DNA of 32,000 nucleotides from Candidatus Korarchaeum cryptofilum OPF8 (GCF_000019605.1 NC_010482.1:390001-422000); one strand, 5' to 3'; counted from the first letter of the stretch, positions 45 to 26,268 are shown. Translations and numbers: made by a program. The notes: generated by a model not told the origin, from the sequence alone.

Positions 45-1208
45 TCAGAGACCCCTGGCCGCTAGCTCTAAAGCCATCTTGAGTTGAGCTTCCACAGGCC
101 TGGGGAGGCCCTCTATCTTGACCTCCATGAACCCCCTCACCAATATGCTCTTAGCTTCCTCCTCGCTGAAGCCCTTTGTCATCAAGTAGTAGAGCTGCTC
201 CTCGCTGAGCCTACCTACGGCAGCCTCATGGGAGAGCTGGACATCATCTATTTTAGCGTCAAGAGCCGGTAGAGTGAGTATCCTGGAGCTATCGGAGAGG
301 AGGAGCCCATCGCACTCTATGTGCCCCCTAGCACCTCTGCCCTCAGCCGATATCAGGGATCTAGTTATAACATCAGCCCTATCCTTCGTTATCACCTTTG
401 ATACTATCTCAGCTGACGTATTCTCAGCTCTCAAGAAGACGCTCCCTCCAACGTCCATCTTCGATTCTCTTGGGGCCACTATAACTGAGGAGAGGTAAGC
501 TTTCGCTCCCTCACCGACTAAATAGACCTTAGGATCCGTCTGGAGGCTGGCTATGGGGCTCATGTTTATGTAGTGGCTGACGTACTCCCCTCCCCTCTCC
601 ACTATCACTCCGGTCCTTGGCCTCACGTGGGAGGTCGGGGCCCACTGATGTATCATCGTGAAAGTCAGCCTCCCCCCTTCCTTAACGTAGAACTCTGAGA
701 TGCCAGCGTGCAAGCCCGGAGCCTCAGCGGAGGTAAGGCATCCTGTTATAACGTGGAGCTCCGCTCCCTCCTCCACTATAACTATGTTGTGAGGAGCTTG
801 TAAGGATCCAGGGGTGGAGAGGAGCAGGCACGATAGGACGGGCTGCTCGACCTTCCTACCCCTCTCGGCTATGAATACGTAGCCCTCATGCCCCCCGAAT
901 AACTCAGCTGCTGCTGTGTACTTATCAGTATCGACTTTAACGGCATTCCAGAAGTAATCTTGAACTAGCCCCTCCTCTAGAGCCTGAGAGAGGGTCAATA
1001 CCTTGACTCCAGGTATAGAGGGCCTGACCTCAACTGGCCTATTATCTACTTGGATGTAAGAAGCGCTCTCAGGATCTATTCCTATGCTGGAGAGCGCTTC
1101 CAGACCCATAGAAGAACTGGCCCTGGGCTTCAGGAAGTCCTCTATCCTCAAGTCTATCCCATAGGGGGATGGCTTATTCAAAGCTTCCTCAGCCGCTTTC
1201 TTCAACAT
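45..1208 (-). CDS. SufB/SufD-family Fe-S cluster assembly protein
   Basis: ORF 45..1235 lies immediately downstream of sufC. The C-terminal region (HEAAVGRLSEEQLYYLMTKGFSEEEAKSILVRGF) matches the SufBD family signature. The internal ATG at 1208 overlaps the sufC stop as TGATG, so I prefer 1208 as the start over 1235. I cannot tell SufB from SufD. Confidence 0.85.
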   Translation of the reverse strand: MLKKAAEEALNKPSPYGIDLRIEDFLKPRASSSMGLEALSSIGIDPESASYIQVDNRPVEVRPSIPGVKVLTLSQALEEGLVQDYFWNAVKVDTDKYTAAAELFGGHEGYVFIAERGRKVEQPVLSCLLLSTPGSLQAPHNIVIVEEGAELHVITGCLTSAEAPGLHAGISEFYVKEGGRLTFTMIHQWAPTSHVRPRTGVIVERGGEYVSHYINMSPIASLQTDPKVYLVGEGAKAYLSSVIVAPRESKMDVGGSVFLRAENTSAEIVSKVITKDRADVITRSLISAEGRGARGHIECDGLLLSDSSRILTLPALDAKIDDVQLSHEAAVGRLSEEQLYYLMTKGFSEEEAKSILVRGFMEVKIEGLPRPVEAQLKMALELAARGL

Positions 1209-1957
1209 CAGACCACCCTGACGCACCTGAGGCATTCTGAGAACCCGTACTTCTCTATGTCCTCTATCAGATCAGCTGGATTCCCGAAGCACTTCACCTC
1301 CCCATTCAGGATTATATAAGCTCTGTTAGCGTTCCTAACGTGCTTCAATATCTTCCCCATGTGAGTTACTATTATAGCAGATCTCTTCTCCCTCGCCCTA
1401 CTATCGGAAGCTCCAACTATCTCATTTATGACCTTCCCAATTATAGGGAGGCTCTCCAGATCAACTCCGGAGTCAGGTTCATCTAAAAGAGCTAATTTGG
1501 GGTTCTGAGCAGCGAGAAGCAGGAGCTCAACTTTCTTCATCTCCCCTCCGCTGAAGCCCCTGTGGAGCTCCCTATCCAATAGTCTCTCTATCCTCAGCTC
1601 CTCCGAGATCCTCCTGAGAGTATCTTGATCAGTCCCATAAATTTTAGAGAGCCTCTTTATCAGATCCCTGAGCCTAACCCCCTTAAGAGCTGGGGGAATC
1701 TGCATCATGAACCCTATCCCGAGCTTCGCCCTCTCGCTAGCGCTCATCCCAGTTATGTCGATTCCATTGAAGATTATCCTACCGGATACCTCATACCCCG
1801 GCCTCCCCATTATAGCGTGCAGGAGAGTGGATTTCCCAGAGCCGTTGGGCCCTAGCAGGGCGACTATCTCCCCCTCCCCGACTTCGAAGCTGACCTCCCT
1901 CAGTATCTCCCTCTCCCTCACCTTCACGCTCAATTCCTCGACTTTCAGCATGGCCAT
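1208..1957 (-). CDS. sufC: Fe-S cluster assembly ABC ATPase SufC
   Basis: Walker A GPNGSGKST, signature FSGGEMKKVELL, Walker B LALLDEPDSGVD, H-loop IIVTHMGK. The GRPGYEVSGRIIFNG segment is typical of SufC. Followed by the SufBD gene. Confidence 0.92.
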   Translation of the reverse strand: MAMLKVEELSVKVREREILREVSFEVGEGEIVALLGPNGSGKSTLLHAIMGRPGYEVSGRIIFNGIDITGMSASERAKLGIGFMMQIPPALKGVRLRDLIKRLSKIYGTDQDTLRRISEELRIERLLDRELHRGFSGGEMKKVELLLLAAQNPKLALLDEPDSGVDLESLPIIGKVINEIVGASDSRAREKRSAIIVTHMGKILKHVRNANRAYIILNGEVKCFGNPADLIEDIEKYGFSECLRCVRVV

Positions 1958-1969
1958 CTAGATTACTAA

Positions 1970-6527
<4,558 letters not shown>

Positions 6528-15265: not shown

Positions 15266-15907
15266 ATGATGCTCCCCCTGATCTTAGCGATCATAACACT
15301 ACTGATAGCGAGCTTATACGACCTGAAGGATAGGCAGGTCCCCGATGAGCTCTGGGTACCGGGGGTAGCGGTTGGCTTATCCATCAAGGTATTGGAATGG
15401 GAGCGAACTGTGAAATTCCTAGAGAATTACTGGCCCTTCCTCCTTCTCCTCGCGATAATGCTCTTAATAGAGTGGTTCCTCTCTACATCAGGTGAGGCTG
15501 ACCTCCTAGCTTACCTTACACTAGCATCACTGATGTCCGGAAAGTGCTGGTTTCCAGACGCCCTCATCATATACATAGCATCGAAGGTGCTGATGGTCCT
15601 AACTCTGCCCTTCCAGTTCTTATTGAACTTGATCACTGTGATGAGGCATCCCGAGTTAATTGAGGGATTCGATGAGCCTATCTGGAGGAAGTTGCTTGCT
15701 CTGCTACTATTGACTCCCTACAGGAGGCCTCTCTCCTTCTACGCAACGGTAGCTGAGATTGAGGTGGGAGGGAAGAGGAAGTTCGTCTTGAGAGCTGCTC
15801 TCAAACCCATAAGCGATGAGATGCCGGAGGAAGGGAAGTGGATAGCACCCACTTATCCTATGATTCCCTTCATACTGGCTGCGACCATCATAACCGCATT
15901 ATGCTGA
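15266..15907 (+). CDS. A24-family aspartic peptidase (archaeal prepilin/preflagellin peptidase-like)
   Basis: Polytopic membrane protein. First catalytic Asp motif ASLYDLKDRQVPDELW. Candidate second motif SGEADLL (a variant of GxGD). TATA-like tatatctttaaaaag at 15233-15248. Confidence 0.7.
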   Translation: MMLPLILAIITLLIASLYDLKDRQVPDELWVPGVAVGLSIKVLEWERTVKFLENYWPFLLLLAIMLLIEWFLSTSGEADLLAYLTLASLMSGKCWFPDALIIYIASKVLMVLTLPFQFLLNLITVMRHPELIEGFDEPIWRKLLALLLLTPYRRPLSFYATVAEIEVGGKRKFVLRAALKPISDEMPEEGKWIAPTYPMIPFILAATIITALC

Positions 15908-16182
15908 AGTGAAACTGAAAATTCTGAAGGGCTTCAAAACATTTCTACTGCGTCTCCGCGGCATCGAGTAACTCTCTCAGCTCCTTCTTCATAGATCTCC
16001 TCTCTATATGGTTCGCAGATGATTTCCCTAAACTTATCTACGGAGCCCTAGGATAATTTCGAGTGCATTTTCTCAGTTCCGCAGTATAACTCGCCCCCTA
16101 TAACGCTTCAGATTGATCGCTTAAAAGAGATCTTCTCCGGCTCAGAGGGGTTCTATAATCCTCATATGCGGTCAGAACGGCT

Positions 16183-16914
16183 TCAGAGATGCCTAGGCGC
16201 GGCCTCCGCTAATTCCATGAAAGATATCACGGGCACCCCGAATTCTTCTTCAAGTCTTTCGCGCATCTTTCCGATGGATATCACAGTGAATATACCTGAG
16301 ACATTAGCTCTAGCCTCTCTGCAGAGATTCATCAATGCTCTCATTGCAGCTCCTGTCCTGATTATATCGTCAGCTAGGAGTACGTACTCCCCTCTCCTCA
16401 GGGCATCCTTATGCAAGTAGATGTACCTATAAGTCCCGGATCCGAAGACCTGCTTTATCTCTATGAACTTCCTCACGCCTATCTCCTTCGATTTCCTGGC
16501 TACCGCTACTTCCTTACCGAATATAGAGGCTATCTGATATGCTACGGGTATCCCATCGGTCTCTATCGTTAGCACTCTGTCTATCTTCACGGAGTTCATC
16601 CTCTCATACTCCGATAAAATGATATATTTTAGAAGAACCGGATCATATATTATAAAACTGTTATCCACTACACCGAACTCATCAACTATAATTCTATTCT
16701 TCACTTCCATTATTAGGTATTTTTTCTTGAGGAGATTGAAGATAGAGCGGGCTATCTCGAGTCCGGGGATGACGTGTCCATTCACGTACCTACTCAGAGC
16801 GGTAGGTGGTATATTCAGCATGGATGATAGCTCCTTGTAGGGCATCATCGTCTTGAGTATCCTCAGGGCTTCGATGGAGTTGAGCCTGTACATCAACTCC
16901 TCAAATTTCTTCAA
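16183..16914 (-). CDS. PurR-like protein: N-terminal HTH fused to a type I phosphoribosyltransferase domain
   Basis: HTH segment YKELSSMLNIPPTALSRYVNGHVIP. PRPP-binding loop VLLADDIIRTGAAMRAL. The architecture matches PurR/GfcR-type PRT-fold regulators. Confidence 0.75.
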   Translation of the reverse strand: MKKFEELMYRLNSIEALRILKTMMPYKELSSMLNIPPTALSRYVNGHVIPGLEIARSIFNLLKKKYLIMEVKNRIIVDEFGVVDNSFIIYDPVLLKYIILSEYERMNSVKIDRVLTIETDGIPVAYQIASIFGKEVAVARKSKEIGVRKFIEIKQVFGSGTYRYIYLHKDALRRGEYVLLADDIIRTGAAMRALMNLCREARANVSGIFTVISIGKMRERLEEEFGVPVISFMELAEAAPRHL

Positions 16915-16967
16915 CTACCTGGCCCCCGCTCAATCCCCCACGATAAAAAGTTAAAGTGAAGCTTACT

Positions 16968-17558
16968 CTAGGCCCTCTCAACTCTCTTGAACACAGGGAG
17001 CTCATCGAGGTATATTAGATCACCCTCATACCAGGGACCCTCTATCCATATCGCGGCCTTGCAGGCGATTATGCCTTCAGCTCTCTCAATCAATCTCTCT
17101 AAGGCGGTGATAGTCCCTCCTGTCGAAACCACGTCGTCGATAATGCACACTCTCTTGCCTCTCACCCTATCCACATCCTCCTTAACCAGTATCAGGACTT
17201 GCTTGGCTTTAGTAGTGATAGAAGAACACTCCTCAATGAGGTAATCGGTCATATAAGCTTTCACCGATTTCCTAGCTATCACTAACCTCTTATGCCCGAG
17301 CCTCTTAGCTAACTCATAAGCGAATGCTATAGCCTTGGCTTCAGGCGTGACTAATATCTCGGGGTCGTATCGTTTAACCTTATCATGCATCAACTCGGCT
17401 GCGGCTTGTATGAACTCCATATCCCCGAGGATGAGATCCGCATTGGAAGCTATCCACAGATCCTCCGAGACTTGTATAACTGGAAGCTCTCTGACCACTC
17501 CACCTATATTGATAGTATGACTCTTCTGCCCTCTATACTCTAATACTCGTTTATTCAT
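16968..17558 (-). CDS. Type I purine phosphoribosyltransferase (APRT / 6-oxopurine PRT-like)
   Basis: PRPP loop VCIIDDVVSTGGTITAL. The ORF extends to 17615, but the ATG at 17558-17556 (MNKRVLEY...) overlaps the ecfT stop as ATGA, so I take it as the start. Confidence 0.8.
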   Translation of the reverse strand: MNKRVLEYRGQKSHTINIGGVVRELPVIQVSEDLWIASNADLILGDMEFIQAAAELMHDKVKRYDPEILVTPEAKAIAFAYELAKRLGHKRLVIARKSVKAYMTDYLIEECSSITTKAKQVLILVKEDVDRVRGKRVCIIDDVVSTGGTITALERLIERAEGIIACKAAIWIEGPWYEGDLIYLDELPVFKRVERA

Positions 17559-18274
17559 ACCGAACTCACCAAGATGCTGTCGCAGTAGAGCAGAAGGGCT
17601 ATTAGTAGGAGGCATCCGAAGGTGATAAGTAAATCCCTAGCCCTCAAAGGGCTGGATCTCTTACTGGTCAGCAGAGTGGGCCTGAGCTCCAAAGCCAGCA
17701 CCATCTTCTCCGCGCTATCTATACTCCTAATTAGCAGCGGGAGGAGCAGGGGGATGTGCGATTTGACCCTCTTGATGAGGGAGCCCTTATCGAGTTCGAG
17801 GCCTCTTGAAGTGTGAGCTTCCTTAATTGATTTATAGTCTTCAGCGATTATATAGAGGGTTCTGAGAGCTAACGCTAGCACTGCAGTGACTACTGGCGGA
17901 ACTCTCAATGAGTTCAGGGCTCTAACTATCTCCGTGGGCTTAACGGATATTAAGAAAGTCATCGATATCATTATGATCAAAAGCAACCTGATCGTCATGA
18001 ATAAGCCTAGAGATAAATCGAATCCAGTTGATGCGTGGAATAAGGACCACTTGTTCAGGAAGGTCCAGAGGGGAAACGCTAGAAGGATGATGGGTATGAA
18101 GTTCCTCAGTCTTGAGAGCACTGATGCGAGGGAGCCTGTGAGCGCTAGGATGATCATAGATGAGACCAGTAATGAAATTAGAGAGTAGATGCTCTTGCAT
18201 AAGAACGCTGAGGAGAACCATGCGGCAAATAGGAAGAGCTTAACCCTAGGATCCAACCCTATCCTGTAATACAT
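17555..18274 (-). CDS. ecfT: ECF transporter transmembrane (T) component
   Basis: Polytopic protein. Coupling-helix motifs EAHTSRGLEL and KMVLALELRP correspond to the two A-R-G type motifs of EcfT/CbiQ. It follows the ATPase gene with overlapping reading frames. Confidence 0.8.
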   Translation of the reverse strand: MYYRIGLDPRVKLFLFAAWFSSAFLCKSIYSLISLLVSSMIILALTGSLASVLSRLRNFIPIILLAFPLWTFLNKWSLFHASTGFDLSLGLFMTIRLLLIIMISMTFLISVKPTEIVRALNSLRVPPVVTAVLALALRTLYIIAEDYKSIKEAHTSRGLELDKGSLIKRVKSHIPLLLPLLIRSIDSAEKMVLALELRPTLLTSKRSSPLRARDLLITFGCLLLIALLLYCDSILVSSV

Positions 18275-19703
18275 TTACCCTCACCTCTGCCGATAGAGGC
18301 TCTATCCCCGCTTCCTCAACCAACCTATCATCGCTCAGGAGCTTCGATGGGTCCCCCTCCGCATATACAGTGCCATCCTTCAGTATAGCCAATCTATCCG
18401 CCACCGATAGTGTGAAGTCAGAATCGTGAGTCACTATTACGACTGTCTTACCGGAATTGGAGAGCTTCTCTATTACTTCCCTTATCTGCCTCAATGTATC
18501 CTCATCCTGACCTGTAGTGGGCTCATCGAAGACTATTATCTCGGGATTCATCGCTAGAACTGAAGCGGCATACAGCCTGATCTTCTCCCCCATGCTCAAG
18601 GAGCCCGGGCTATCGTCCTTCCTATCTAAGAGGCCCAGCATGCGCAAAGCTTCTGCGACTCTCTCCTCCCCAAACCCGAGATTCCTAGCACCGAAAGCGG
18701 CTTCATCCCAAACGGTCTCAGAGACGAAATACCTCTCCGGATTCTGGAAGACCATGCCCACGAATTTAGACATAGATGCCGGGCTGACGCTCCGAGTATC
18801 TATGCCCTTAACTATTACGGAGCCCCTCGAGGGTTTGAGGAGCCCGTTGATGTGCTTCATTAAGGTGGTCTTACCTGAACCGTTAGGCCCCATTATCGCG
18901 AAGACCTCGCCCTTCCTTATACTCAGCGTGATATCCTTCAGTACGTAATCTCTATCCTTATTATACCTGAAATGTACCCCTCTGAACTCAATTATGGGTC
19001 CTCCGTAATTACCATCGCACATTCTCGGGATCTTCGCTTCTCCGAATATCATATGATTTTCATAGCTCTGCCTCAGATGGACCACTCTATCTATCACATC
19101 CTCCAATCCCCTGAGTTTCCTAGTGAGCACAACGATCCCTTTTCCATCTTTTTTTAATAATTCTATCGTTTTAGCTATTATTCTTCTACCATTCCAATCA
19201 AGGTTAGCTAGAGGATCATCCATTACAATGTATTTAGGATCGGATAGCATCATGGAAGCTATGACTAACCTGTGCTTCAAACCTCCTGAGAGCTCGTGAG
19301 TATAGTAATCTCCGTACTTTTCCAGCCCGAAGAACTCTAAGATCCACTCAATATTCCCTTCCCCTCTGAGGCTTATCTCAAGATCCTCCTCTACTGTCAA
19401 GCCGAATATCTGCAACTCGTAATTCTGGAGGACTACACCAATCGAACTTATCCTCTCCCTTATTGAGCTGCCGGATAGATCCTCTCCATCGACCTTAATG
19501 CTCCCCCGCAAATCAGCGAATATCCTATTCGGGATTATCCCTGAGATGCAGTGAGCTAGAGTGGTCTTGCCTGAGCCCGATGGGCCCACTATCGCTAACG
19601 CCTCACCGGCTTTGACATAAAAAGATAGATCTTTGAGTATCCAGTCTGAGTTAGGATACCTGCAGCTTAAATTCATCACTTCTAGGGCCCTCAAAGCCTC
19701 CAC
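18246..19703 (-). CDS. Fused double ABC ATPase of an ECF transporter (EcfA-EcfA')
   Basis: Two NBDs. NBD1: GPSGSGKTT / LSGGLKHR / IVMDDPLANLD / VVLTRKL. NBD2: GPNGSGKTT / LSMGEKIR / IIVFDEPTTGQD / VVIVTHDSD. Confidence 0.9.
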   Translation of the reverse strand: MEALRALEVMNLSCRYPNSDWILKDLSFYVKAGEALAIVGPSGSGKTTLAHCISGIIPNRIFADLRGSIKVDGEDLSGSSIRERISSIGVVLQNYELQIFGLTVEEDLEISLRGEGNIEWILEFFGLEKYGDYYTHELSGGLKHRLVIASMMLSDPKYIVMDDPLANLDWNGRRIIAKTIELLKKDGKGIVVLTRKLRGLEDVIDRVVHLRQSYENHMIFGEAKIPRMCDGNYGGPIIEFRGVHFRYNKDRDYVLKDITLSIRKGEVFAIMGPNGSGKTTLMKHINGLLKPSRGSVIVKGIDTRSVSPASMSKFVGMVFQNPERYFVSETVWDEAAFGARNLGFGEERVAEALRMLGLLDRKDDSPGSLSMGEKIRLYAASVLAMNPEIIVFDEPTTGQDEDTLRQIREVIEKLSNSGKTVVIVTHDSDFTLSVADRLAILKDGTVYAEGDPSKLLSDDRLVEEAGIEPLSAEVRVNVLQDRVGS

Positions 19704-20257
19704 TTAATCAGCCCCCTCTTGAGGAGAGGCGGCGTTATAGCACCCACCACTATGGGCGTCCCTATGAGTATCGGAGGTATATCGCTCAATATCAGGAGTA
19801 CTACAGCCGCTCCGAATGGGGCCACGCCCACGAGATCGAACCCTATAGCGACTATCGGTACCATTACAATACCTGAGATCAAGCTGACTAAAGCCACCTT
19901 CAGCAATCCCCTCTTGGATAAAGAGTCATTCGGCTTGCAGAAGTACCCCGGAATCAAACCCGTCAAACCAACCCCTATCAAGTCGAAGATAGGCGTTGCG
20001 GGGTTGAAGTACCCACCTATTATGGCCCAGAGCGTGTTACCGAGGGCTCCGGCCACGAATCCCGTGATGGGGCCATAAAGTATACCGAAGACGCAAGGTA
20101 GGAATGCTAAGACACGCCAGTGTATAGCTCCGGGGATGAGAGGTATAGGAGCCGTTAATAGGAATCCGATAGCTGTGACGGCTGATGAAACGGCCATATA
20201 TGTTACTGCTGTGAGTGCATCCGGTCTCCTGAACACAGCAGGGCTCTCCTGACTCAT
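19691..20257 (-). CDS. ECF transporter substrate-specific (S) component, specificity unknown
   Basis: 188 aa with about 6 TM helices. It is the first gene of the S-AA'-T unit and overlaps the ATPase start by 13 nt. I cannot assign it to a known S family by eye. Confidence 0.65.
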   Translation of the reverse strand: MSQESPAVFRRPDALTAVTYMAVSSAVTAIGFLLTAPIPLIPGAIHWRVLAFLPCVFGILYGPITGFVAGALGNTLWAIIGGYFNPATPIFDLIGVGLTGLIPGYFCKPNDSLSKRGLLKVALVSLISGIVMVPIVAIGFDLVGVAPFGAAVVLLILSDIPPILIGTPIVVGAITPPLLKRGLIKWRL

Positions 20258-20276
20258 ATGATGAGCTCTTACATCA

Positions 20277-20287
20277 TTTATATAAAA
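20277..20287 (-). promoter_or_regulatory. TATA box of the ECF/PRT operon
   Basis: The minus strand reads ttttatataaa, centred about 25 nt upstream of the ATG at 20257. This implies a leaderless transcript and a promoter separate from purP. Confidence 0.5.
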
Positions 20288-20380
20288 TTGACTGACAGGT
20301 ACCTAGAAAATTAACAAGATCATGTAAGGCGCTTTTCATCTCCGGTCTCGGGAAGATTTCTCCCCGTCCCGTCCGATAAT

Positions 20381-21481
20381 TTAATAAATTATTTTATGAA
20401 GAGAACCCGACTTCACGGCTTCTTTTATCTCTCTAGCTATCCTCCTACCCATGGACATAGGCTCATCGTAGTAATAGTAAGAGTAAGGTGAGCCATCGGT
20501 GTAGAGGTTCGTCCCAGCTACTATCCTAGCGGATACCTCGAATGTGATGAAGCCCCTGGAGGGATTATATATCATCTCCATGCAGAACGGACCTATCAAG
20601 CCGGGATAGAAGAGCCTCCTCGACGAGGAAATTATCTTAACAGCATCTCTCAGCAAATCAACTAGATATTTCTCCCTCACGATCACGGGTATGTTGCCGG
20701 TGACGGTATAGTCCATGAAATCCTCCATGAGATCGGGTAAGCCCCTATGTATCTCATCGATAACCTCAAGACGGCGATCTATCCCCAATAACTCAAGTCT
20801 CCCCCCCTCTAAATCTGCTATATTCTCCCCCTCGATCGGGCTGAAGAAGAAGTGCGGGTAGAACCTCACCCCGACTATGAATTCCTCTATCACGACATCC
20901 TCGAGACTCCCAACTAAACCCCTCTCCTTGAGCTCACTGAACTTTTCGTAGAATTCCTCAGGGCTTGAGGCTTTGAAATATCCCTTTCCACCCTTAGCTC
21001 CATGTAGCTTGACTATCACAGGCCTATCTATATCCTCAGGACTCCTATATATTCTCGGAGTCGGTACGCCCGCATCCTCCAGCCATTTCCTCTGCCTCCT
21101 CCTATCCCCCTCCCAGTAGAGCGTCAATCTATTGCCGAACATGGGCACTCTGAATCTCTCCAGTATGTTCTCACTCCCTACGTATTCTACGAAAGATCCG
21201 TGAGGTATCATTATGACGTTCTCAGAGATGAGCTCCTCCTGAGTCTCTTCGCTCAGCAGATCTCCGTAACTATCGACTTCAATGAATATATCTGGCGATG
21301 CCCTCGGGAAGCTCTCATAATAGGGCTTATTCTCCCTCAGAACTATACCGACGCTTCTGAGACCTTCTCTCCGCGCTCCATTGAATATCTGAAGGGAGGA
21401 GTGGGAGCATATAGTACCTATCTTCACGTCGGACTCATCGTACTTCGATAGGACACTGAGTATCCTCTCCCTAGGTATCAT
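20381..21481 (-). CDS. purP: PurP-family ATP-grasp enzyme (FAICAR synthetase, formate- and ATP-dependent)
   Basis: N-terminal IGTICSHSSLQIFNGARREGLRSVGI followed by an ATP-grasp body. It is collinear with the upstream paralog. The start overlaps the upstream stop as ATGA (21478-21481). Confidence 0.85.
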   Translation of the reverse strand: MIPRERILSVLSKYDESDVKIGTICSHSSLQIFNGARREGLRSVGIVLRENKPYYESFPRASPDIFIEVDSYGDLLSEETQEELISENVIMIPHGSFVEYVGSENILERFRVPMFGNRLTLYWEGDRRRQRKWLEDAGVPTPRIYRSPEDIDRPVIVKLHGAKGGKGYFKASSPEEFYEKFSELKERGLVGSLEDVVIEEFIVGVRFYPHFFFSPIEGENIADLEGGRLELLGIDRRLEVIDEIHRGLPDLMEDFMDYTVTGNIPVIVREKYLVDLLRDAVKIISSSRRLFYPGLIGPFCMEMIYNPSRGFITFEVSARIVAGTNLYTDGSPYSYYYYDEPMSMGRRIAREIKEAVKSGSLHKIIY

Positions 21482-22617
21482 GTCACTACCTCCTCCAGCA
21501 TACCTCTCTTCAACGCTTCCCTTATCTCAAGGGCGATCCTCCTACCCACGCTCATCTGAACCCCCCAGAGGTCCTCTGAGTAGGGGGTGAACTTTATCCC
21601 AGGGGATCCAGGGACCCTGACGCTCACATCGTAAACTACTATATCCTCATGAGGCGGGCCGGGGATTACCACGCTTTGGAGAGCGAAAGGACCTATCACT
21701 CCAGGTGGGCATAGCTCTCTCGCCGCTCTCACAAATCTCTCAGCTAGTTCGAAAGCTCCCTCCAAGAGCGACTCCCTTATCGTGCAAGCCACGTGCCCCA
21801 CCTCTATATTCCTCACCTCAAGATACCTCAAAGCTTCGAGCTGCTGTGTAGCGGGCAGCCTCACTATACCATCTATATTAGTCTGCCTCCTCATATCGAT
21901 CCCTAGGAGCTCTATCTCACCATCCAGAGGTGAGTAGAAGAAGTTGAAGTTGAAATAGGCCCCTATCAATAGCTCCTCTATGACAGCTTCATCTAAAGCT
22001 TCCTTTTTTATCAAACCCCTCTCTAAAAGCTCCCTGGACCTCTCTTCGAACTCTCTAGGAGAGGATACTATGAAGAAAGCTCTCTCATAGCCTCTAGCCG
22101 CTTCGGATACTTTGACTATAGCTGGCCCGTCTATCTCATCAGGGTCCTTGAATATCCTGGGGTGGGGTATACCGGCCCTCTCGAGCAATTCGTACTGATT
22201 GAGCTCGCCCCCTCTCTCCTCAACCCTGAGCAAGTACCTGTTCCCGAATATAGGTATGTAAAGCGAGTTCTCTATAGCTTCATAACCTACGTATACGCAA
22301 AGGCCTCTATGGGGCACTAAGATAGTGTTCCTCTCCCTTATCTCCTCCTGCACTTCCTCATTCACGATATCCCGGAACTTATCGAGGACGATCACCTCAT
22401 CGATTATCCCGACTCTCCTACCGAACCTCTCCCTTGAGATGTAGTACCTCGAGTAAGTCCTCTCCCTTCCCCTCTGGCATATGACTAGCGTCCTGAAACC
22501 CTCGTCCTTCGCGCCTCTACTTACTTCTAGGGCGGAATGGGTCCCAAGGACACCTATTGTCAGCTCCCGCCCTGAGTAGCCCTCGAGGATCCTCGCTATC
22601 TCCACCCTGCTTACCAT
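21478..22617 (-). CDS. purP: PurP-family ATP-grasp enzyme, second paralog
   Basis: IGVLGTHSALEVSRGAKDEGFRTLVICQRGRERTY... is alignable by eye to the downstream paralog along its whole length. Confidence 0.85.
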   Translation of the reverse strand: MVSRVEIARILEGYSGRELTIGVLGTHSALEVSRGAKDEGFRTLVICQRGRERTYSRYYISRERFGRRVGIIDEVIVLDKFRDIVNEEVQEEIRERNTILVPHRGLCVYVGYEAIENSLYIPIFGNRYLLRVEERGGELNQYELLERAGIPHPRIFKDPDEIDGPAIVKVSEAARGYERAFFIVSSPREFEERSRELLERGLIKKEALDEAVIEELLIGAYFNFNFFYSPLDGEIELLGIDMRRQTNIDGIVRLPATQQLEALRYLEVRNIEVGHVACTIRESLLEGAFELAERFVRAARELCPPGVIGPFALQSVVIPGPPHEDIVVYDVSVRVPGSPGIKFTPYSEDLWGVQMSVGRRIALEIREALKRGMLEEVVT

Positions 22618-22690
22618 CGAGTGAGCTCATCTCACAACGATTAAAAAGGTACATGCGATCGAATTTTATTTGAGGGTATCAGGTAATAGT

Positions 22691-22984
22691 ATGCTCATAG
22701 TCGAGATAGCTGTGGATCCGATAGGCACCAGTTCCCCTAGCGTCGGGGATTACATAAGGAGAGTGGTGGAGGTGATAAAGAGGAGGGGATTGAAGCACTG
22801 GGTAGGGCCCATGGGGACTTCAATCGAGATATCCAGCTTTAAGGAGCTCGGGGAACTCCTCCAAGATATACACGATGAGCTCAACAGACTGGGGGTCATG
22901 AGGATCGTGACCGCTGTGAGGATCGATGATAGGAGGGATAAGGGAATAGACATGGAGTATAAAGTGAGGAGGGCGAGCGGATAA
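22691..22984 (+). CDS. MTH1187/YkoF-like (UPF0045) small ligand-binding protein
   Basis: MLIVEIAVDPIGTSSPSVGDYIRRVVEVIKRRGLKHWVGPMGTSIE matches the MTH1187-family pattern (ferredoxin-like fold; some members bind thiamine or HMP). ATG 22691 is preferred over TTG 22670. Confidence 0.75.
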   Translation: MLIVEIAVDPIGTSSPSVGDYIRRVVEVIKRRGLKHWVGPMGTSIEISSFKELGELLQDIHDELNRLGVMRIVTAVRIDDRRDKGIDMEYKVRRASG

Positions 22985-22991
22985 TAAAACT

Positions 22992-23645
22992 TCAGAAGAT
23001 GACCCTCACCTCCTCCCCCTCTCCCCCTGATGTCTCCAGTATGAACTCCAGGGTGAGGAAGGCGGCTCTCCTGAGCAAGGAGGCATCTACACCAGGAACT
23101 CCAGCGGCCACTATGAGGACTTCCCTCGTTCCCTGAGTTATCATGGTCCTCACACTATCCCTGTGAGGGTAGAGGAAGATAGGGCCATCCTCATCAGCTA
23201 GGACAGGCTCCCCTCCGGACAGGACCTTCTCACCCCCTCCTATCGGCTTGAAGATCTCCCCAGGCCTGGCTAACCTCAGCTCCAGCTTCCCCCTCACTTT
23301 CCCCAGATCGTAGAGGCCTATTGGCACCAATGTGATCGCGCTAGCCGCATTTCCGGAGTCGACGATGCTATTTATAGATGGCAAACCTTCCTTAAGGATC
23401 CTCCTGACTAGGGCTTCGCTGCTGGGCCTCACCTTAGTTGGATCTATTCCTATCCTCCAGTAGAAGTCCCTGTATGCCCTGACTACAGGATCCTCCTTCA
23501 AGCTCTCCAGAGTGTACTTCCTCCTGACCTCCTCAACAGCCAGCTCTATAACCTTACTCCCGGATCCCCTCACCTCCACGCCTCTCGCTCTCGAGAAGGC
23601 TATCGAGATCCCGAGGGCTCTAGCGTCCTCTCCCAGCTCTATCAT
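22992..23645 (-). CDS. B3/B4 domain protein (PheRS beta-subunit B3/4-like, COG3382)
   Basis: DPVVRAYRDFYWRIGIDPTKVRPSSEALVRRILKEGLPSINSIVDSGNAASAITLVPIGLYD is characteristic of stand-alone B3/4 proteins. Confidence 0.75.
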   Translation of the reverse strand: MIELGEDARALGISIAFSRARGVEVRGSGSKVIELAVEEVRRKYTLESLKEDPVVRAYRDFYWRIGIDPTKVRPSSEALVRRILKEGLPSINSIVDSGNAASAITLVPIGLYDLGKVRGKLELRLARPGEIFKPIGGGEKVLSGGEPVLADEDGPIFLYPHRDSVRTMITQGTREVLIVAAGVPGVDASLLRRAAFLTLEFILETSGGEGEEVRVIF

Positions 23646-23824: not shown

Positions 23825-24862
23825 ATGTGCCCCATGGGCTTGGATCTAGAGTTAGCTGTAGCAGCTCTGAAGCTCGTTAGGGACATTATGAAAGTGAGGG
23901 AGGGGGAGGAGGTAGTCATAACTGCTGATACTGGCTGTGACTGGAGGGTCGCTGAAGCTACCGCTCAAGCAGCCGCCCAACTTAATGCGAAGCCCATAGT
24001 AGTGTGGTACATGTCCCCCCCAGGTGTGGGGAAGGCAGCAGATCCTCACATACCCCTAAAAGCCTTGAAAGCCCTTTTGAGCGAGTCGGATGTCTGGATT
24101 GAGTTCAATAAATCCTGGTTGCTCTATTCGACACCTTATGAGAGTGCGATGAGCGCCGGTAAGGTTCGTTATATCTGCTTAGTTGGGATGGATGCTGATA
24201 TGGCCACTAGGACTATAGGGAGGGTGAAAGTCCCCCTCCTCTACGAGTTCCAGAGGAGGTTAGCTAGGATAACGGAGAGATCGAGGCATATGAGGATAAA
24301 AACACCGGCTGGAACTGATGTGGAATTTGAGAATGATAGGGAGAGGCCCGTGCTCGTGGAAGGGGAGGTAGAAGGGCCCGGGGAGTACATGCTCTTCGGT
24401 CAGGTTGATTGGGCCCCAGTAGAGGATAGCATAAATGGATCCATAGTATTCGATGGATCCGTATGGCCCCCATCTGAGCTAGGTCTCCTCAGGAGTCCCA
24501 TAAAGCTGCACGTTAGGGATGGGACTATAGTCAAAGTTGAGGGAGGTAGCGAGGCCAAGGTCTTCGAAGCTTGGCTCAAGTCTTTCAAAGATCCGAATAT
24601 GCTCAGGATAGCTCACCTATCCTACGGTTGCAATCCCGGAGCTAAGCTCACTGGGAACATATTGGAGGATGAGAGGGTTTGGGGTTCCTCAGCAGTTTCC
24701 AGAAAGTTAACTTTATATAACCTTATCTGGATATACCTACACGATAAAATTTATAAATTGAGAGATCTCGCATTCTGTGCCCGATATGTGGTGATACGTA
24801 GCACCGAATGGGCACATGCACAGGATGAGGGGAGCCCCGTTGCCCCTGAAAGCCATCAATGA
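23825..24862 (+). CDS. M29 aminopeptidase / NicX-like family protein, with the 3' end apparently replaced (likely truncated or a pseudogene)
   Basis: Family-like sequence runs up to ...LRIAHLSYGCNPGAKLTGNILEDERVWGS (about 24690). The last ~55 codons are AT-rich promoter-like DNA and structured RNA-like sequence with no family resemblance. GGAGG lies 7 nt upstream of ATG 23825. Confidence 0.7.
   Translation: MCPMGLDLELAVAALKLVRDIMKVREGEEVVITADTGCDWRVAEATAQAAAQLNAKPIVVWYMSPPGVGKAADPHIPLKALKALLSESDVWIEFNKSWLLYSTPYESAMSAGKVRYICLVGMDADMATRTIGRVKVPLLYEFQRRLARITERSRHMRIKTPAGTDVEFENDRERPVLVEGEVEGPGEYMLFGQVDWAPVEDSINGSIVFDGSVWPPSELGLLRSPIKLHVRDGTIVKVEGGSEAKVFEAWLKSFKDPNMLRIAHLSYGCNPGAKLTGNILEDERVWGSSAVSRKLTLYNLIWIYLHDKIYKLRDLAFCARYVVIRSTEWAHAQDEGSPVAPESHQ
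24701..24720 (+). promoter_or_regulatory. Strong BRE/TATA promoter inside the 3' tail of the M29-like ORF
   Basis: agaaagttaaCTTTATATAA, with a second TTTATAAA at 24750-24757. Confidence 0.5.
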
Positions 24863-24984
24863 GGATAGCAGCAGTGCTATCCGAGATGGAACGGGTAGTA
24901 AATGTTAACTACCCGACAACGGAGATTATGGCTGAAGCAAGCGATACTCGGAATGCATGATTGGAGCGATCGATAGACTTTTTT
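24745..24984 (+). ncRNA. Candidate structured non-coding RNA or long structured leader, class unknown
   Basis: A BRE/TATA lies upstream. Nested helices: 24770-75/24951-56, 24776-82/24810-16, 24790-93/24802-05, 24851-56/24928-33, 24863-70/24875-82 and 24892-98/24909-15. A T6 run at 24979-24984 could act as the terminator. The ends are estimates only. Confidence 0.35.
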
Positions 24985-26268
24985 CATGTAGAAACTAGCG
25001 TTCCTCTCATTAAGTTCGGAGCCCATCGAAGGAAATGGGAACCGTTATACCGCTGCGTTGGCAGATCACCGGGTGAGAGGCTGAGTAGGAATTCGATCAA
25101 GTTTTTAGCAGCTCTTCTGCTCCTCATCATGGGTGCACTAGTGCTATATGAGAGGAAGCCCGGCTTCGTTGTGGCGAGTCCCCTCGATTCTTACACGGAT
25201 TTCTCAATGGACCTCACCTCCAGGATAGGGCTAGGGGAGAGGAACACAGCTATTTCCCCATATAGCGTCTACATCGCCCTTCTCATGCTGACAGAAGGTG
25301 CTGGAGGCGATACTAAGGACGAGCTCATGAGAGCGATGAGGATCTCCTCCCTGGATGAAGCTAGAAATTGGTTCAACGCGAGCATCGAGAGGTTCACGGG
25401 TGTCGAGAGAGGGGCGAGGGCTGAGGTAGCTGACAGCGTATGGGTGAAGGAGGGATTCCCGGTCAGTGAGAAATATCTGGAGGTCGTCAGAAAATACTAC
25501 TTAGCTGAAGTGCTCAGCTTCAGAGATCCAGCTGATGCCGTGCCCAGGATAAATGGATGGATCTTCAATAGAACTAACGGGCTGATAGATAAGGTAGTCG
25601 ATGAACTGGATCCTAGAGCTGTGGTAGTGCTAGTGAATACGATCTACTTCAAGGCGAACTGGACGATTCCGTTCGAGAGAGTTGAGAAGGGGGATTTCCA
25701 CTCCCCTGATGGCATTGAGACAGCTGACTATCTCAGGGGCCGAGTTAAGGCCAATTACTTAGATGCTGGGGATTACGTAGCTCTGGCCCTCAGTTATAGT
25801 GGTACTGATGTCAAGTTCGTCGTCCTCATGCCTAAGGGCGATCTGAAAGGATTCTTGGGTGGCATGGGGAGGGAGAAGCTGCTGGAGATATTCGAGAAGC
25901 TCTTCAACTCGTCTGAGAGTGATATAGACCTATCATTACCGAAGTTCGATATAGATAGCGGCCCCCTCGACCTCGAAAGCGTGCTGGTATCGATGGGCAT
26001 GAAGAAGATATTCATCCCAGGGGAGGCTGATTTAAGCCCCATGGTGGAGGGGAGCGAGGAGCTGTGCGTCGATAAAGTGCTGCACAGGGCTAGGGTGAAG
26101 GTGGATCTCTACGGGACCGAGGCTGCTGCTGCGACAGCCGTAATAATAAGATTGACAGCAATGCCTTCCCAGGAGATCTCAGTGAAGATAGACAGGCCCT
26201 TCGCTTTCTTCCTAGTCGATCCAGAAAATAAGGCGATACTCTTCGCTGGGAGCTTCGTCCATCCTTAA
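24961..26268 (+). CDS. Serpin (serine protease inhibitor) with an N-terminal signal-anchor
   Basis: SPYSVYIALLMLTEGAGGDTKDELMRAM, NTIYFKANWTIPF, hinge and reactive-centre loop GTEAAAATAVIIRLTAMPSQ, DRPFAFFLVD. TM segment IKFLAALLLLIMGALVLY. The only in-frame start upstream of the TM is TTG 24961. ATG 25129 is an alternative that would remove the anchor. Confidence 0.85.
   Translation: MERSIDFFHVETSVPLIKFGAHRRKWEPLYRCVGRSPGERLSRNSIKFLAALLLLIMGALVLYERKPGFVVASPLDSYTDFSMDLTSRIGLGERNTAISPYSVYIALLMLTEGAGGDTKDELMRAMRISSLDEARNWFNASIERFTGVERGARAEVADSVWVKEGFPVSEKYLEVVRKYYLAEVLSFRDPADAVPRINGWIFNRTNGLIDKVVDELDPRAVVVLVNTIYFKANWTIPFERVEKGDFHSPDGIETADYLRGRVKANYLDAGDYVALALSYSGTDVKFVVLMPKGDLKGFLGGMGREKLLEIFEKLFNSSESDIDLSLPKFDIDSGPLDLESVLVSMGMKKIFIPGEADLSPMVEGSEELCVDKVLHRARVKVDLYGTEAAAATAVIIRLTAMPSQEISVKIDRPFAFFLVDPENKAILFAGSFVHP

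What the first reader, a model, noticed from the sequence alone, without database searches (positions are those of the whole stretch)
16183..22617. purP-purP, a dedicated ECF importer, a translationally coupled PRT and a PurR-like HTH-PRT: candidate purine/AICA uptake-and-trapping module
Seen in sequence: seven same-strand genes, in the order purP paralog, purP, a 123-nt spacer with its own TATA, ECF S component, fused EcfA-A', EcfT, type I PRT, a 53-nt gap, then an HTH-PRT fusion. S/AA', AA'/T and T/PRT all overlap (13 nt, 29 nt and ATGA), so the PRT is part of the transporter operon. Established knowledge: group I ECF modules carry a dedicated S component that fixes substrate specificity. 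Type I PRTs convert imported bases to nucleotides using PRPP. Adenine PRTs can also phosphoribosylate AICA to AICAR. PurP converts AICAR, formate and ATP to FAICAR. B. subtilis PurR is a PRT-fold, PRPP-sensing repressor. Inference: the S component may import a purine base or an imidazole precursor such as AICA. The coupled PRT would then trap it, PurP would feed it towards IMP, and the HTH-PRT would sense PRPP or nucleotide levels. As far as I know, a PRT hard-wired into an ECF operon is not a described arrangement. Competing hypothesis: a YkoEDC-like HMP/thiamine-precursor importer. YkoD is also a fused double ATPase, and an MTH1187/YkoF-like gene sits nearby at 22691-22984.
Basis: partly seen in the sequence, partly recalled or inferred. 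Interest (0 to 1): 0.72.

Follow-up and report, generated by a model that had tools for sequence, protein, structure and literature searches.

The report
Archaeal purine-precursor uptake-and-trap operon
In Korarchaeum cryptofilum, an archaeon reported to lack de novo purine synthesis, a dedicated ECF importer is fused into one operon with a phosphoribosyltransferase next to two PurP genes, which probably imports the imidazole base AICA (or a purine base) and would explain where this organism gets its AICAR.

Summary
Seven minus-strand genes lie in the stated order, with 13-nt, 29-nt and ATGA overlaps, a 123-nt spacer and a 53-nt gap.

The PRT is 100% identical to a protein NCBI labels Candidatus Korarchaeum cryptofilum OPF8, so I take the window to be that genome or a near-identical strain. 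The purP pair then corresponds to Kcr_0400/0401. Brown et al. 2011 report no other de novo purine genes and no histidine genes there, and propose AICAR comes from "some unidentified salvage pathway".

S-AA'-T-PRT is conserved in 42 of 42 assessable loci from many archaeal lineages. A PurP-family gene lies within 8 kb in 18 of 31 fully flanked loci. In several lineages its start overlaps the PRT stop codon. The other recurrent purine neighbours are guaB, purA, purB and guaA; no early de novo gene recurs.

The S component forms one tight family and matches no vitamin-specific family. The nearest solved PRT homologue is an adenine PRT. A conserved 16-bp palindrome marks the S promoter.

Best reading: AICA is imported, converted to AICAR, and passed by PurP towards IMP. 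The substrate is inferred, not shown; adenine or another purine base is the main rival. This is a new variant of known kinds, and directly testable.

The parts
21478..22617 (-). purPa: PurP-like ATP-grasp, cluster II type (His in place of the AICAR-carboxamide Asn; long non-P-loop)
   Evidence: DUF1246+DUF1297. E 1e-82 to M. jannaschii PurP 2R7K, where 'EVGHVACTIRE' aligns to 'ITGNIPVVIRE'. Cluster definitions from PMC3261824.
20381..21481 (-). purPb: PurP-like ATP-grasp, cluster Ib type (KGGKG P-loop, Asn conserved); candidate formate-dependent AICAR formyltransferase
   Evidence: DUF1246+DUF1297. E 1e-92 to 2R7K with 'VTGNIPVIVRE'. Best NCBIfam equivalog scores 384 bits, below its cut-off of 590.
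22618..22690 (.). Divergent intergenic region between purPa and the MTH1187-family gene. Candidate purPa promoter (CCTTTTTAAT at 22648..22639, about 27 nt upstream of the ATG)
   Evidence: Read from sequence. No match to the S-promoter palindrome at 11 bits or more. Function inferred.
20258..20380 (-). 123-nt spacer holding the promoter of the ECF-PRT operon. TATA-like TTTTATATAAA at 20287..20277, so the mRNA is probably leaderless
   Evidence: Sequence. Upstream regions of the homologous loci show the same layout.
20312..20327 (.). Conserved 16-bp palindromic operator candidate (consensus TTACAT-N4-ATGTAA; here TTACATGATCTTGTTA on the minus strand), centred about 37 bp upstream of the TATA box
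   Evidence: PWM score 20.6 bits, and the only site of 11 bits or more in the 32-kb window. The window site alone is not significant: 1 match against 0.63 expected. Its positional conservation is: 24 of 25 exact matches to WTACAYNNNNNTGTWA in 52 loci lie just upstream of S.
19691..20257 (-). ECF S component (substrate-capture subunit) of a new, very tightly conserved archaeal family
   Evidence: PF07155 at 42.5 bits. Homologues are 63-93% identical across phyla. The family is a single 50%-identity cluster. AF2 model pLDDT 89.8 with S-component fold.
18246..19703 (-). Fused EcfA-A' ATPase. The N-terminal NBD is degenerate (IVMDDP, LTRK) and the C-terminal NBD is canonical
   Evidence: Two ABC_tran domains; TIGR04520 at 322 bits. 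Motif survey.
17555..18274 (-). EcfT transmembrane coupling subunit
   Evidence: PF02361 CbiQ at 89.5 bits.
16968..17558 (-). Type I PRT of the PRK07322 (APRT-like) subfamily, translationally coupled to EcfT. Proposed trapping enzyme (base + PRPP gives the ribonucleotide)
   Evidence: NF005592 at 193.9 bits, cut-off 143. 41% identical to an APRT-labelled solved structure, 5ZGO, E 6e-34. PRPP loop VCIIDDVVSTGGT. 100% identical to a K. cryptofilum OPF8 protein.
16915..16967 (-). 53-nt gap with a TATA-like ACTTTTTATC. Possible separate promoter for the HTH-PRT gene
   Evidence: Sequence only. Inferred.
16183..16914 (-). HTH(XRE)-PRT fusion. Candidate ligand-sensing transcription factor of the operon
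   Evidence: HTH_3 + Pribosyltran; NF006328 at 305 bits. The PRT domain is closest to B. subtilis PurR (1P4A/1O57, E 1e-14). Adjacent to the ECF-PRT operon in 12 of 48 other loci, either upstream or downstream.

Best explanation
This is a purine-precursor salvage module that works by uptake and trapping.

Proposed mechanism:
1. A dedicated (group I) ECF transporter, made of S, fused A-A' and T, captures a small heterocyclic base outside the cell. The most likely substrate is 5-aminoimidazole-4-carboxamide (AICA).
2. The co-translated APRT-like PRT immediately condenses the base with PRPP to give AICAR (ZMP). This makes uptake irreversible.
3. The adjacent PurP pair formylates AICAR with formate and ATP to give FAICAR, which closes to IMP.
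4. IMP feeds the PurA/PurB and GuaB/GuaA branches.
5. The HTH-PRT fusion probably binds the conserved palindrome in the S promoter. It would adjust expression to PRPP or a nucleotide through its PurR-like PRT-fold domain.

Shown here: the gene order and overlaps, the family assignments, the conservation of S-AA'-T-PRT, the PurP linkage, the organism's identity, and the conserved promoter palindrome.

Inferred: the substrate, the PRT reaction, the role of each PurP paralogue, and the regulator-operator pairing.
For: - Core operon. S-AA'-T-PRT is conserved in 42/42 assessable loci. In the window the junctions overlap.
- PurP linkage. The PurP family is the most frequent conserved neighbour after the PRT-fold genes (20/48 loci; 18/31 with at least 3 kb on both sides). 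It occurs in at least six different arrangements.
- Operon membership of purP. The PRT stop overlaps the purP ATG in L042, L048 and L041. The L015 and L024 junctions also appear to overlap, but those purP starts are TTG codons taken from the longest ORF and are unverified. Gaps are 11-17 nt in L046 and L021. In L016 a PurP gene sits 16 nt upstream of S. The gene order therefore reads importer, then PRT, then PurP, which fits consecutive steps.
- Other neighbours. The remaining recurrent purine neighbours are guaB-purA-purB (L002, L005, L006) and guaA (L042, L046, L048). No early de novo gene recurs.
- Organism. The window is K. cryptofilum. Brown et al. 2011 found there only purP x2 and purB, no histidine pathway, and proposed an unidentified AICAR salvage route.
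- PRT type. The PRT belongs to the APRT-like PRK07322 subfamily. APRT is reported to convert AICA to AICAR (PMC12541799, title and abstract only; otherwise established knowledge).
- S component. It is an ECF S component but matches no vitamin family.
- Transporter swap. One distant PRT homologue follows an APC-family permease instead of an ECF module, which fits a transporter-plus-PRT logic.
- Regulation. A conserved palindrome sits at the S promoter, and the HTH-PRT is adjacent in 12 loci.
Against: - No binding or activity data exist for any component.
- The nearest characterised homologue family, Thermus APRT, prefers 6-aminopurines and did not accept 1,2,4-triazole-3-carboxamide, an AICA-like base. 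AICA itself was not tested (PMC6317416). I assume, but did not verify, that the enzyme in that paper is the one solved as 5ZGO.
[quoted passage not shown] The PurP step is therefore itself uncertain.
- Both purP genes score below the NCBIfam equivalog cut-offs.
- No IMP cyclohydrolase is known in this organism.
- 13 of 31 well-flanked loci have no purP nearby.
- ECF transporters are typically low-flux micronutrient importers, whereas purine demand is bulk. This point rests on my own knowledge.
- The palindrome is absent from the purPa promoter.
Confidence: 0.5

Rival explanations
1. This is a general purine-base importer with a trapping PRT. Adenine is the most likely substrate; hypoxanthine, guanine or xanthine are possible. 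The neighbouring purP, guaB, purA, purB and guaA genes would simply reflect a shared purine-nucleotide gene neighbourhood.
For: - The nearest solved homologues are labelled adenine PRTs (5ZGO and 6FSP, E about 1e-33, 41% identity), and the NCBIfam subfamily is named adenine phosphoribosyltransferase.
- Thermus APRT prefers 6-aminopurines.
- K. cryptofilum must salvage purines anyway.
- guaB, purA, purB and guaA are neighbours in six loci.
Against: - It does not explain why purP, rather than any other purine gene, is the dominant partner and is often translationally coupled to the PRT.
- It leaves the retained purP pair of K. cryptofilum without an AICAR source.
- AMP, IMP or GMP made directly by a PRT needs no PurP.
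Confidence: 0.3
2. The importer takes up another related compound. Candidates are AICA-riboside or another nucleoside that is cleaved before phosphoribosylation, a 7-deazapurine, or an unknown base. [quoted passage not shown]
For: - The function of cluster Ib/II PurP-like enzymes is unproven.
- The S family has no characterised relatives.
- PfkB kinases occur near the operon in three loci, which I did not follow up.
Against: - No nucleoside phosphorylase, hydrolase or kinase is a conserved neighbour.
- A PRT acts on free bases.
- purPb keeps the residues that contact AICAR in MJ0136, namely Asn258 and the P-loop.
Confidence: 0.12
3. This is a vitamin or cofactor-precursor importer. It could be YkoEDC-like for HMP/thiamine, as the nearby MTH1187/YkoF-like gene suggests, or RibU-like for riboflavin. 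The PRT would be an unrelated passenger.
For: - YkoD is also a fused double ATPase (established knowledge).
- An MTH1187-family gene lies at 22691..22984.
- The best Pfam hit for S is the RibU-type family PF07155.
Against: - The MTH1187 neighbour is conserved only in the closest relative, L001.
- S scores 20.7 bits against a cut-off of 99 for the RibU equivalog.
- YkoE (5EDL) is only rank 20 in the fold search, at E 0.14 and 14% identity.
- No riboswitch was found.
- The PRT is present in 42/42 loci, so it is not a passenger.
Confidence: 0.03
4. The operon-encoded PRT is not mainly an enzyme. It would be a PRPP- or nucleotide-sensing accessory subunit that gates the ECF transporter.
For: - PRT folds have been recruited as sensors: PurR, and the HTH-PRT next door.
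- The stoichiometric coupling implied by overlapping genes fits a subunit role.
Against: - The PRT keeps a canonical PRPP loop, VCIIDDVVSTGGT, and is full-length collinear with an APRT-labelled solved structure, 5ZGO.
- It has no extra docking domain.
- It also pairs with an unrelated APC permease.
Confidence: 0.05

Closest known systems
Group I (dedicated) ECF transporters such as YkoEDC, BioMNY and CbiMNQO
   Same: The S, A/A' and T genes sit in one operon. The S fold, the CbiQ-type T and the ECF-type ATPase domains are all present. As in YkoD, A and A' are fused.
   Different: - The S family is new and matches no named specificity family.
- A soluble PRT is a constant fourth gene.
- The genomic context is purine nucleotide metabolism, not vitamins or metals.
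- The N-terminal NBD is degenerate.
APRT-labelled solved structures 5ZGO and 6FSP (PRK07322 subfamily), which I take from my own knowledge to be Thermus thermophilus enzymes
   Same: Same subfamily, collinear over the full length, 41% identity, canonical PRPP loop.
   Different: The archaeal enzyme is hard-wired to an importer and to PurP, and its base specificity is unknown. The Thermus enzyme described in PMC6317416 prefers 6-aminopurines, and AICA was not tested. Whether that is the same protein as 5ZGO was not verified, and the Thermus genomic context was not examined here.
APRT-dependent AICA salvage in mammals and bacteria (AICA + PRPP gives ZMP, then PurH/ATIC gives IMP)
   Same: The proposed chemistry is the same for the first step, and the product enters the last two steps of purine synthesis (PMC12541799; established knowledge).
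   Different: There it is a side activity of housekeeping APRT, with no dedicated transporter. Here there would be a dedicated importer, a dedicated PRT and formate-dependent PurP instead of folate-dependent PurH.
M. jannaschii PurP (MJ0136; 2R7K), FAICAR synthetase
   Same: Both window genes are full-length homologues (E 1e-92 and 1e-82). purPb keeps the P-loop and Asn258.
   Different: They belong to clusters Ib and II, whose activity is not established. purPa has His in place of Asn258 and a longer loop. Both score below the equivalog cut-offs.
Bacillus subtilis PurR (PRPP-sensing pur repressor)
   Same: A PRT-fold effector domain is joined to a DNA-binding domain. It is the best PDB match for the PRT half, at E 1e-14.
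   Different: The DNA-binding domain is an XRE-type HTH_3, not the PurR winged helix. TIGR01743 scores 75.8 bits against a cut-off of 258.7. The candidate operator is a 16-bp palindrome, not a PurBox. The ligand is unknown.

Membership tests
ECF transporter, group I (dedicated module) | S component with the ECF S-component fold | tested here: met
   PF07155 at 42.5 bits, cut-off 26.7. The AF2 model (pLDDT 89.8) has solved ECF S components as its top 24 PDB hits, at TM 0.45-0.64.
ECF transporter, group I (dedicated module) | EcfT (CbiQ-family) subunit and two EcfA-type ATPase domains encoded with S in one operon | tested here: met
   PF02361 at 89.5 bits. TIGR04520 at 322 bits, cut-off 315, with two ABC domains. 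Overlapping reading frames.
ECF transporter, group I (dedicated module) | ATP-dependent import of the S-bound substrate | not testable with these tools
   Needs proteoliposome or whole-cell uptake assays.
RibU (riboflavin S component) | Score at or above the NCBIfam equivalog cut-off | tested here: not met
   NF010182 at 20.7 bits against a cut-off of 99. 15-20% identity to solved RibU structures.
YkoEDC (HMP/thiamine-precursor ECF) | YkoE-type S component, with a conserved thiamine-related context | tested here: not met
   No YkoE family hit. 5EDL ranks 20th at E 0.14 and 14% identity. The MTH1187 neighbour is conserved only in L001. No THI element was found.
PRK07322-type adenine PRT subfamily (type I PRT) | Score at or above the subfamily cut-off, with an intact PRPP-binding loop | tested here: met
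   NF005592 at 193.9 bits, cut-off 143. Loop VCIIDDVVSTGGT. E 6e-34 to 5ZGO.
PRK07322-type adenine PRT subfamily (type I PRT) | Adenine as the physiological base | not testable with these tools
   Needs enzyme kinetics with adenine, AICA, hypoxanthine, guanine and xanthine.
PurP (formate-dependent AICAR formyltransferase) | PurP architecture (DUF1246 + DUF1297 ATP-grasp) | tested here: met
   Both genes hit both domains. E 1e-92 and 1e-82 to MJ0136.
PurP (formate-dependent AICAR formyltransferase) | Equivalog-level score and the AICAR-carboxamide Asn258 plus the (K/R)GG(K/R)G P-loop | tested here: inconclusive
   The scores (384 and 325 bits) are below the cut-offs of 556-603. purPb has both Asn and KGGKG. 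purPa has His and no P-loop, as described for clusters Ib and II.
B. subtilis PurR family | PurR-type N-terminal winged-helix domain plus PRT-fold domain, scoring at equivalog level | tested here: not met
   TIGR01743 at 75.8 bits against a cut-off of 258.7. The N-terminus is HTH_3 (XRE). Only the PRT-fold half resembles PurR.
B. subtilis PurR family | PRPP-modulated DNA binding | not testable with these tools
   Needs EMSA with and without PRPP or nucleotides on the 20312..20327 palindrome.

The most novel reading that the evidence does not exclude
AICA is the physiological substrate. The S-AA'-T-PRT operon plus PurP would then form a previously undescribed short-cut purine pathway: external AICA to AICAR to FAICAR to IMP. 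This pathway would be the missing AICAR source of K. cryptofilum. It would let purine-auxotrophic, mostly geothermal archaea, including DPANN lineages, rebuild purines from an imidazole breakdown product. It would also be the first ECF transporter for a nucleobase precursor, possibly with the PRT working at the transporter as a transport metabolon.
Probability: 0.4. Interest if true: 0.85.

Novelty: new variant of a known kind. Interest (0 to 1): 0.74.

Why it matters
- It offers a concrete, testable answer to a question left open in 2011. K. cryptofilum keeps two purP genes although it has no de novo purine or histidine pathway to make AICAR.
- It defines a new and unusually conserved ECF S-component family. 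Its genomic context points to a substrate class (nucleobase or imidazole precursor) outside the usual vitamins and metals.
- It shows a recurrent design in which a trapping enzyme is built into a transporter operon, in 42 of 42 assessable loci.
- It gives a candidate archaeal purine regulator (XRE-HTH fused to a PRT fold) together with a conserved operator to test.
- It bears on how auxotrophic thermophilic archaea and DPANN lineages obtain purines, and so on attempts to cultivate them.

Tried and rejected
- RNA elements. An Rfam scan of 15900..23000 at E up to 1 gave only a chance miRNA hit, so there is no riboswitch or leader.
- Shared operator. I looked for a common site at the purPa and S promoters. 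GAGCTCA lies just upstream of both ATGs in the window, but I did not test it in other loci and do not rely on it. The conserved palindrome from the S promoters has no site of 11 bits or more at purPa, nor in the 53-nt gap upstream of the HTH-PRT gene, nor anywhere else in the window. On the window alone that palindrome is not significant: 1 match against 0.63 expected.
- Fold search for S specificity. All solved S components match about equally, so the fold gives no substrate call.
- Distant relatives of S. All ten that I scanned were unnamed in NCBIfam.
- Prior descriptions. Four full-text searches found none: ECF with phosphoribosyltransferase, ECF with purine, ECF with aminoimidazole, and ECF with APRT. 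Rodionov et al. 2009 was not retrievable under the PMC id I tried. The supplement of the 2026 Korarchaeota paper is not held. Prior mention there cannot be excluded.
- First synteny pass. It used a frame-shifted PRT query and was redone correctly.
- Whole-genome inventory of pur and his genes. This could not be run. I rely on Brown et al. 2011 for it.

Full report
**Observation.**
- purPa is 22617..21478 and purPb is 21481..20381, with an ATGA overlap.
- A 123-nt spacer (20380..20258) carries TTTTATATAAA at 20287..20277, centred 25 nt upstream of the S ATG. The mRNA is therefore probably leaderless.
- S is 20257..19691. The fused EcfAA' is 19703..18246 and overlaps S by 13 nt. EcfT is 18274..17555 and overlaps AA' by 29 nt.
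- The PRT is 17558..16968, with an ATGA overlap on T. The longer ORF starting at 17615 is not the gene: the NCBIfam match begins just after the internal Met, and public gene calls give 196 aa.
- A 53-nt gap follows, then the HTH-PRT at 16914..16183.
- Gene calls on four near-identical metagenome contigs give the same boundaries.

**Family assignments.**
- Both purP genes have DUF1246 + DUF1297.
- S hits PF07155 at 42.5 bits.
- AA' has two ABC domains, and TIGR04520 scores 322 bits against a cut-off of 315.
- T is CbiQ.
- The PRT hits NF005592/PRK07322 at 193.9 bits against a cut-off of 143.
- The HTH-PRT has HTH_3 + Pribosyltran, and NF006328 scores 305 bits against a cut-off of 184.

**Identity of the window.** The 196-aa PRT is 100% identical to a protein that NCBI labels [quoted passage not shown], carried on a 1,590,757-bp contig. 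I therefore take the window to be that genome or a near-identical strain. On that basis the two purP genes would be the adjacent cluster Ib and cluster II pair, Kcr_0400/0401, discussed by Brown et al. 2011 (PMC3261824). I infer this from the organism and the cluster types, not from a direct match to those locus tags. purPb has the KGGKG P-loop and keeps the Asn that contacts the AICAR carboxamide (VTGNIPV), so it is cluster Ib. purPa has His at that position (EVGHVAC) and a longer loop, so it is cluster II.

Brown et al. list K. cryptofilum among the archaea that cannot make purines. They found only the purP pair and purB, and no histidine pathway, which is the other cellular source of AICAR. 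[quoted passage not shown] They also noted a full set of IMP-to-AMP and IMP-to-GMP enzymes and no known IMP cyclohydrolase.

**Synteny.** S-component homologues are 63-93% identical across many archaeal lineages. I used an alignment of 20 of them to scan one genome per GTDB species. This returned 48 loci, named as Nitrososphaeria/Aigarchaeota (Wolframiiraptor, Geocrenenecus, Terraquivivens), Methanomethylicota, Bathyarchaeia, Brockarchaeota, Thermoproteales, Aenigmatarchaeota and Woesearchaeota.

tblastn with the window proteins shows S, then AA' (fused or split), then T, then PRT in every locus that extends far enough. That is 42 of 42.

All-against-all clustering of the ORFs in these loci shows only a few families shared by more than four loci:
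- S (48 loci);
- the PRT and HTH-PRT fold (43);
- T (42);
- AA' (37, plus the split forms);
- the PurP family (20);
- generic ABC ATPases (15).

Approached from the PRT side, two of three sampled distant PRT homologues again follow S-AA'-T. The third follows an APC-family permease instead. That transporter swap fits a transporter-plus-PRT logic.

**The PurP link.** A PurP-family gene lies within the fetched 8 kb on either side in 20 of 48 loci, and in 18 of the 31 loci with at least 3 kb on both sides. The arrangements differ:
- a purP pair directly upstream of S (the window and L001);
- a purP pair, then guaB-purA-purB, then S (L002, L005, L006);
- a purP pair directly after the PRT (L012, L042, L048) or after the HTH-PRT (L028, L034);
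- a single convergent purP (L036-L038, L047);
- a single long PurP variant of 459-488 aa, with DUF1246 + DUF1297, directly after the PRT (L015, L021, L024, L046) or directly before S (L016).

The junctions are tight. The PRT stop codon overlaps the purP ATG in L042, L048 and L041. The L015 and L024 junctions also appear to overlap, but those purP starts are TTG codons from the longest ORF and are unverified. Gaps are 11-17 nt in L046, L021 and L016. In Thermoproteales and Aenigmatarchaeota, and probably Methanomethylicota, purP is therefore part of the same operon, with gene order importer, PRT, PurP.

A Pfam census of 291 neighbouring ORFs found, as recurrent purine functions, only IMPDH, adenylosuccinate synthetase and adenylosuccinate lyase (three loci) and GMP synthase (three loci). 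No early de novo gene recurred. The census lists only families seen at least twice, so single occurrences would be missed.

**The S component.** It passes the Pfam threshold for the broad RibU-type family. It fails the RibU equivalog (20.7 bits against 99) and the FolT subfamily (17.2 against 60). An exhaustive phmmer search of 1.84 billion cluster representatives found one hit below 1e-30 and 41 below 1e-3. The family is therefore essentially a single 50%-identity cluster with few distant relatives, and those I scanned are unnamed.

An AlphaFold model (pLDDT 89.8, pTM 0.87) matches RibU, HmpT/PdxU, BioY, PanT, ThiT and FolT about equally, at TM 0.45-0.64 and 14-25% identity. The YkoE structure 5EDL ranks 20th. 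It is a genuine S component with no affinity to any vitamin-specific family. The MTH1187/YkoF-like neighbour is conserved only in the closest relative. The YkoEDC alternative is not supported.

**The PRT.** Its best solved homologues are 5ZGO and 6FSP, labelled adenine or adenine/guanine PRT (E about 1e-33, 41% identity). Next come an adenine phosphopsicosyltransferase (7F06) and 1VCH. From my own knowledge I take 5ZGO and 6FSP to be Thermus thermophilus enzymes. The PRPP loop is canonical.

Thermus APRT is reported to prefer 6-aminopurines and not to accept 1,2,4-triazole-3-carboxamide. AICA was not tested (PMC6317416). I did not verify that this is the same protein as 5ZGO. APRT-type enzymes are the ones known to phosphoribosylate AICA (PMC12541799; established knowledge). 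The enzyme is therefore of the right kind for AICA, but equally for adenine.

**Regulation.** The regions upstream of S share a 16-bp palindrome, TTACAT-N4-ATGTAA. A PWM built from 26 of these sites gives 74 hits of 11 bits or more in 637 kb. All of the top 28 hits lie upstream of S or at its very start. Because the PWM was trained on these sites, the informative point is that comparable sites are absent elsewhere.

With an exact degenerate pattern, 24 of 25 matches in 52 loci fall just upstream of S. In the window the site is 20312..20327. It scores 20.6 bits, is centred about 37 bp upstream of the TATA box, and is the only site of 11 bits or more in the 32 kb. Taken alone, this site is not significant. 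Many loci also have a weaker second half-palindrome overlapping the TATA region.

No such site precedes purPa, and none lies in the 53-nt gap upstream of the HTH-PRT gene. The HTH-PRT is adjacent to the operon in 12 other loci, either downstream of the PRT or immediately upstream of S with the palindrome between them. Its PRT half is closest to B. subtilis PurR (E 1e-14), but its DNA-binding half is XRE-type. It is therefore PurR-like in logic and not a PurR family member. That it binds the palindrome and senses PRPP or a nucleotide is inference.

**Interpretation.** The data establish a conserved four-gene uptake-and-trap unit that is linked to PurP more than to anything else. It sits in an organism that retains PurP without any known AICAR source.

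The simplest reading has four steps. The ECF system imports AICA. The PRT converts it to AICAR. The PurP pair takes it to FAICAR and IMP. IMP then enters the AMP and GMP branches. I put this at about 0.5.

The main rival, at about 0.3, is a purine-base importer, most likely for adenine. It is favoured by the specificity of the nearest characterised homologue. It leaves both the in-operon purP genes and the K. cryptofilum purP pair unexplained.

Three smaller possibilities remain: another base or nucleoside (0.12), a sensor rather than an enzyme role for the PRT (0.05), and a vitamin-type substrate (0.03).

The model has several weak points:
- There are no biochemical data for any component.
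- The IMP cyclohydrolase is missing.
- ECF transporters usually carry micronutrients, not bulk nutrients.

**Novelty.** I found no description of an ECF-PRT operon or of an ECF link to AICA in the searchable literature. The 2009 ECF comparative-genomics paper and one relevant supplement could not be read. All the parts belong to known kinds: ECF transporter, type I PRT, PurP, and a PRT-fold regulator. The new features are the combination, the S family, the inferred substrate class and the operator. I class it as a new variant of a known kind, with interest 0.74. It makes a 2011 open question directly testable and applies across many archaeal lineages.

Noticed in passing
window 18246-19703 (EcfAA'), and homologues in L001-L038: The N-terminal ATPase domain is degenerate. 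Walker B reads IVMDDP (the catalytic Glu is replaced by Asp), and the H-loop reads LTRK (no His). The C-terminal domain is canonical (VFDEP, VTHD). In the 35 other two-domain fused homologues the position after the Walker B Asp is Asp or Asn in 29 and Glu in 6, which suggests one catalytic and one non-catalytic ATP site.
   Followed up: partly
window 19691-20257 versus 16968-19703; loci L002-L048: The membrane S component is far more conserved (65-82% identity outside the near relative L001) than its own partners AA' (27-66%), T (29-59%) and PRT (39-74%). The whole S family collapses into one 50%-identity cluster. The cause is unexplained; it could be strong constraint or horizontal spread.
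   Followed up: partly
L015:9164-10630, L016:6587-7966, L021:11345-12790, L024:4005-5420, L046:11629-13017: A long PurP variant of 459-488 aa (DUF1246 + DUF1297, about 31-33% identical to purPa) replaces the purP pair. It sits directly next to the ECF-PRT operon in Methanomethylicota, Bathyarchaeota and Geothermarchaeum MAGs. It may be a distinct PurP paralogue class.
   Followed up: partly
JGI contig carrying P0237 (no DNA held): A PRT homologue 53% identical to the window PRT lies 64 nt downstream of an APC-family permease (AA_permease_2, 529 aa) instead of an ECF module. A purine DNA glycosylase gene is nearby. This is an apparent swap of the importer.
   Followed up: no
L007:9134-10333: An ORF immediately after the PRT has a weak, partial match to the NCS1 cytosine/purine/thiamine/allantoin permease family (29 bits).
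   Followed up: no
window 22691-22984 (+) and 22992-23645 (-): An MTH1187/YkoF-family 'thiamine-binding' protein gene is divergent from purPa, and a B3/4-domain protein gene follows it. This pairing with the purP-ECF cluster is kept only in the closest relative, L001.
   Followed up: yes
window 20262-20268 and 22623-22629: The heptamer GAGCTCA lies 4-5 nt upstream of the ATG of both S and purPa, where the transcription start of leaderless mRNAs would fall. It might be a second shared control element. I saw it only in this window and did not test it in other loci.
   Followed up: no
neighbour ORFs of L001-L048: His_biosynth (HisA/HisF-type) proteins occur in 3 of the neighbour ORFs, PfkB-family kinases in 3, and additional PF12822 S components in 3. 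The loci were not identified individually.
   Followed up: no
window 24961-26268 (+); 2018-3565 (+); 45-1957 (-); 23825-24862 (+): Other genes in the window, none purine-related: a serpin (268 bits), a fused NAD(P)HX epimerase/dehydratase, and SufBD with its ABC ATPase. A 345-aa ORF at 23825-24862 has no Pfam hit.
   Followed up: no
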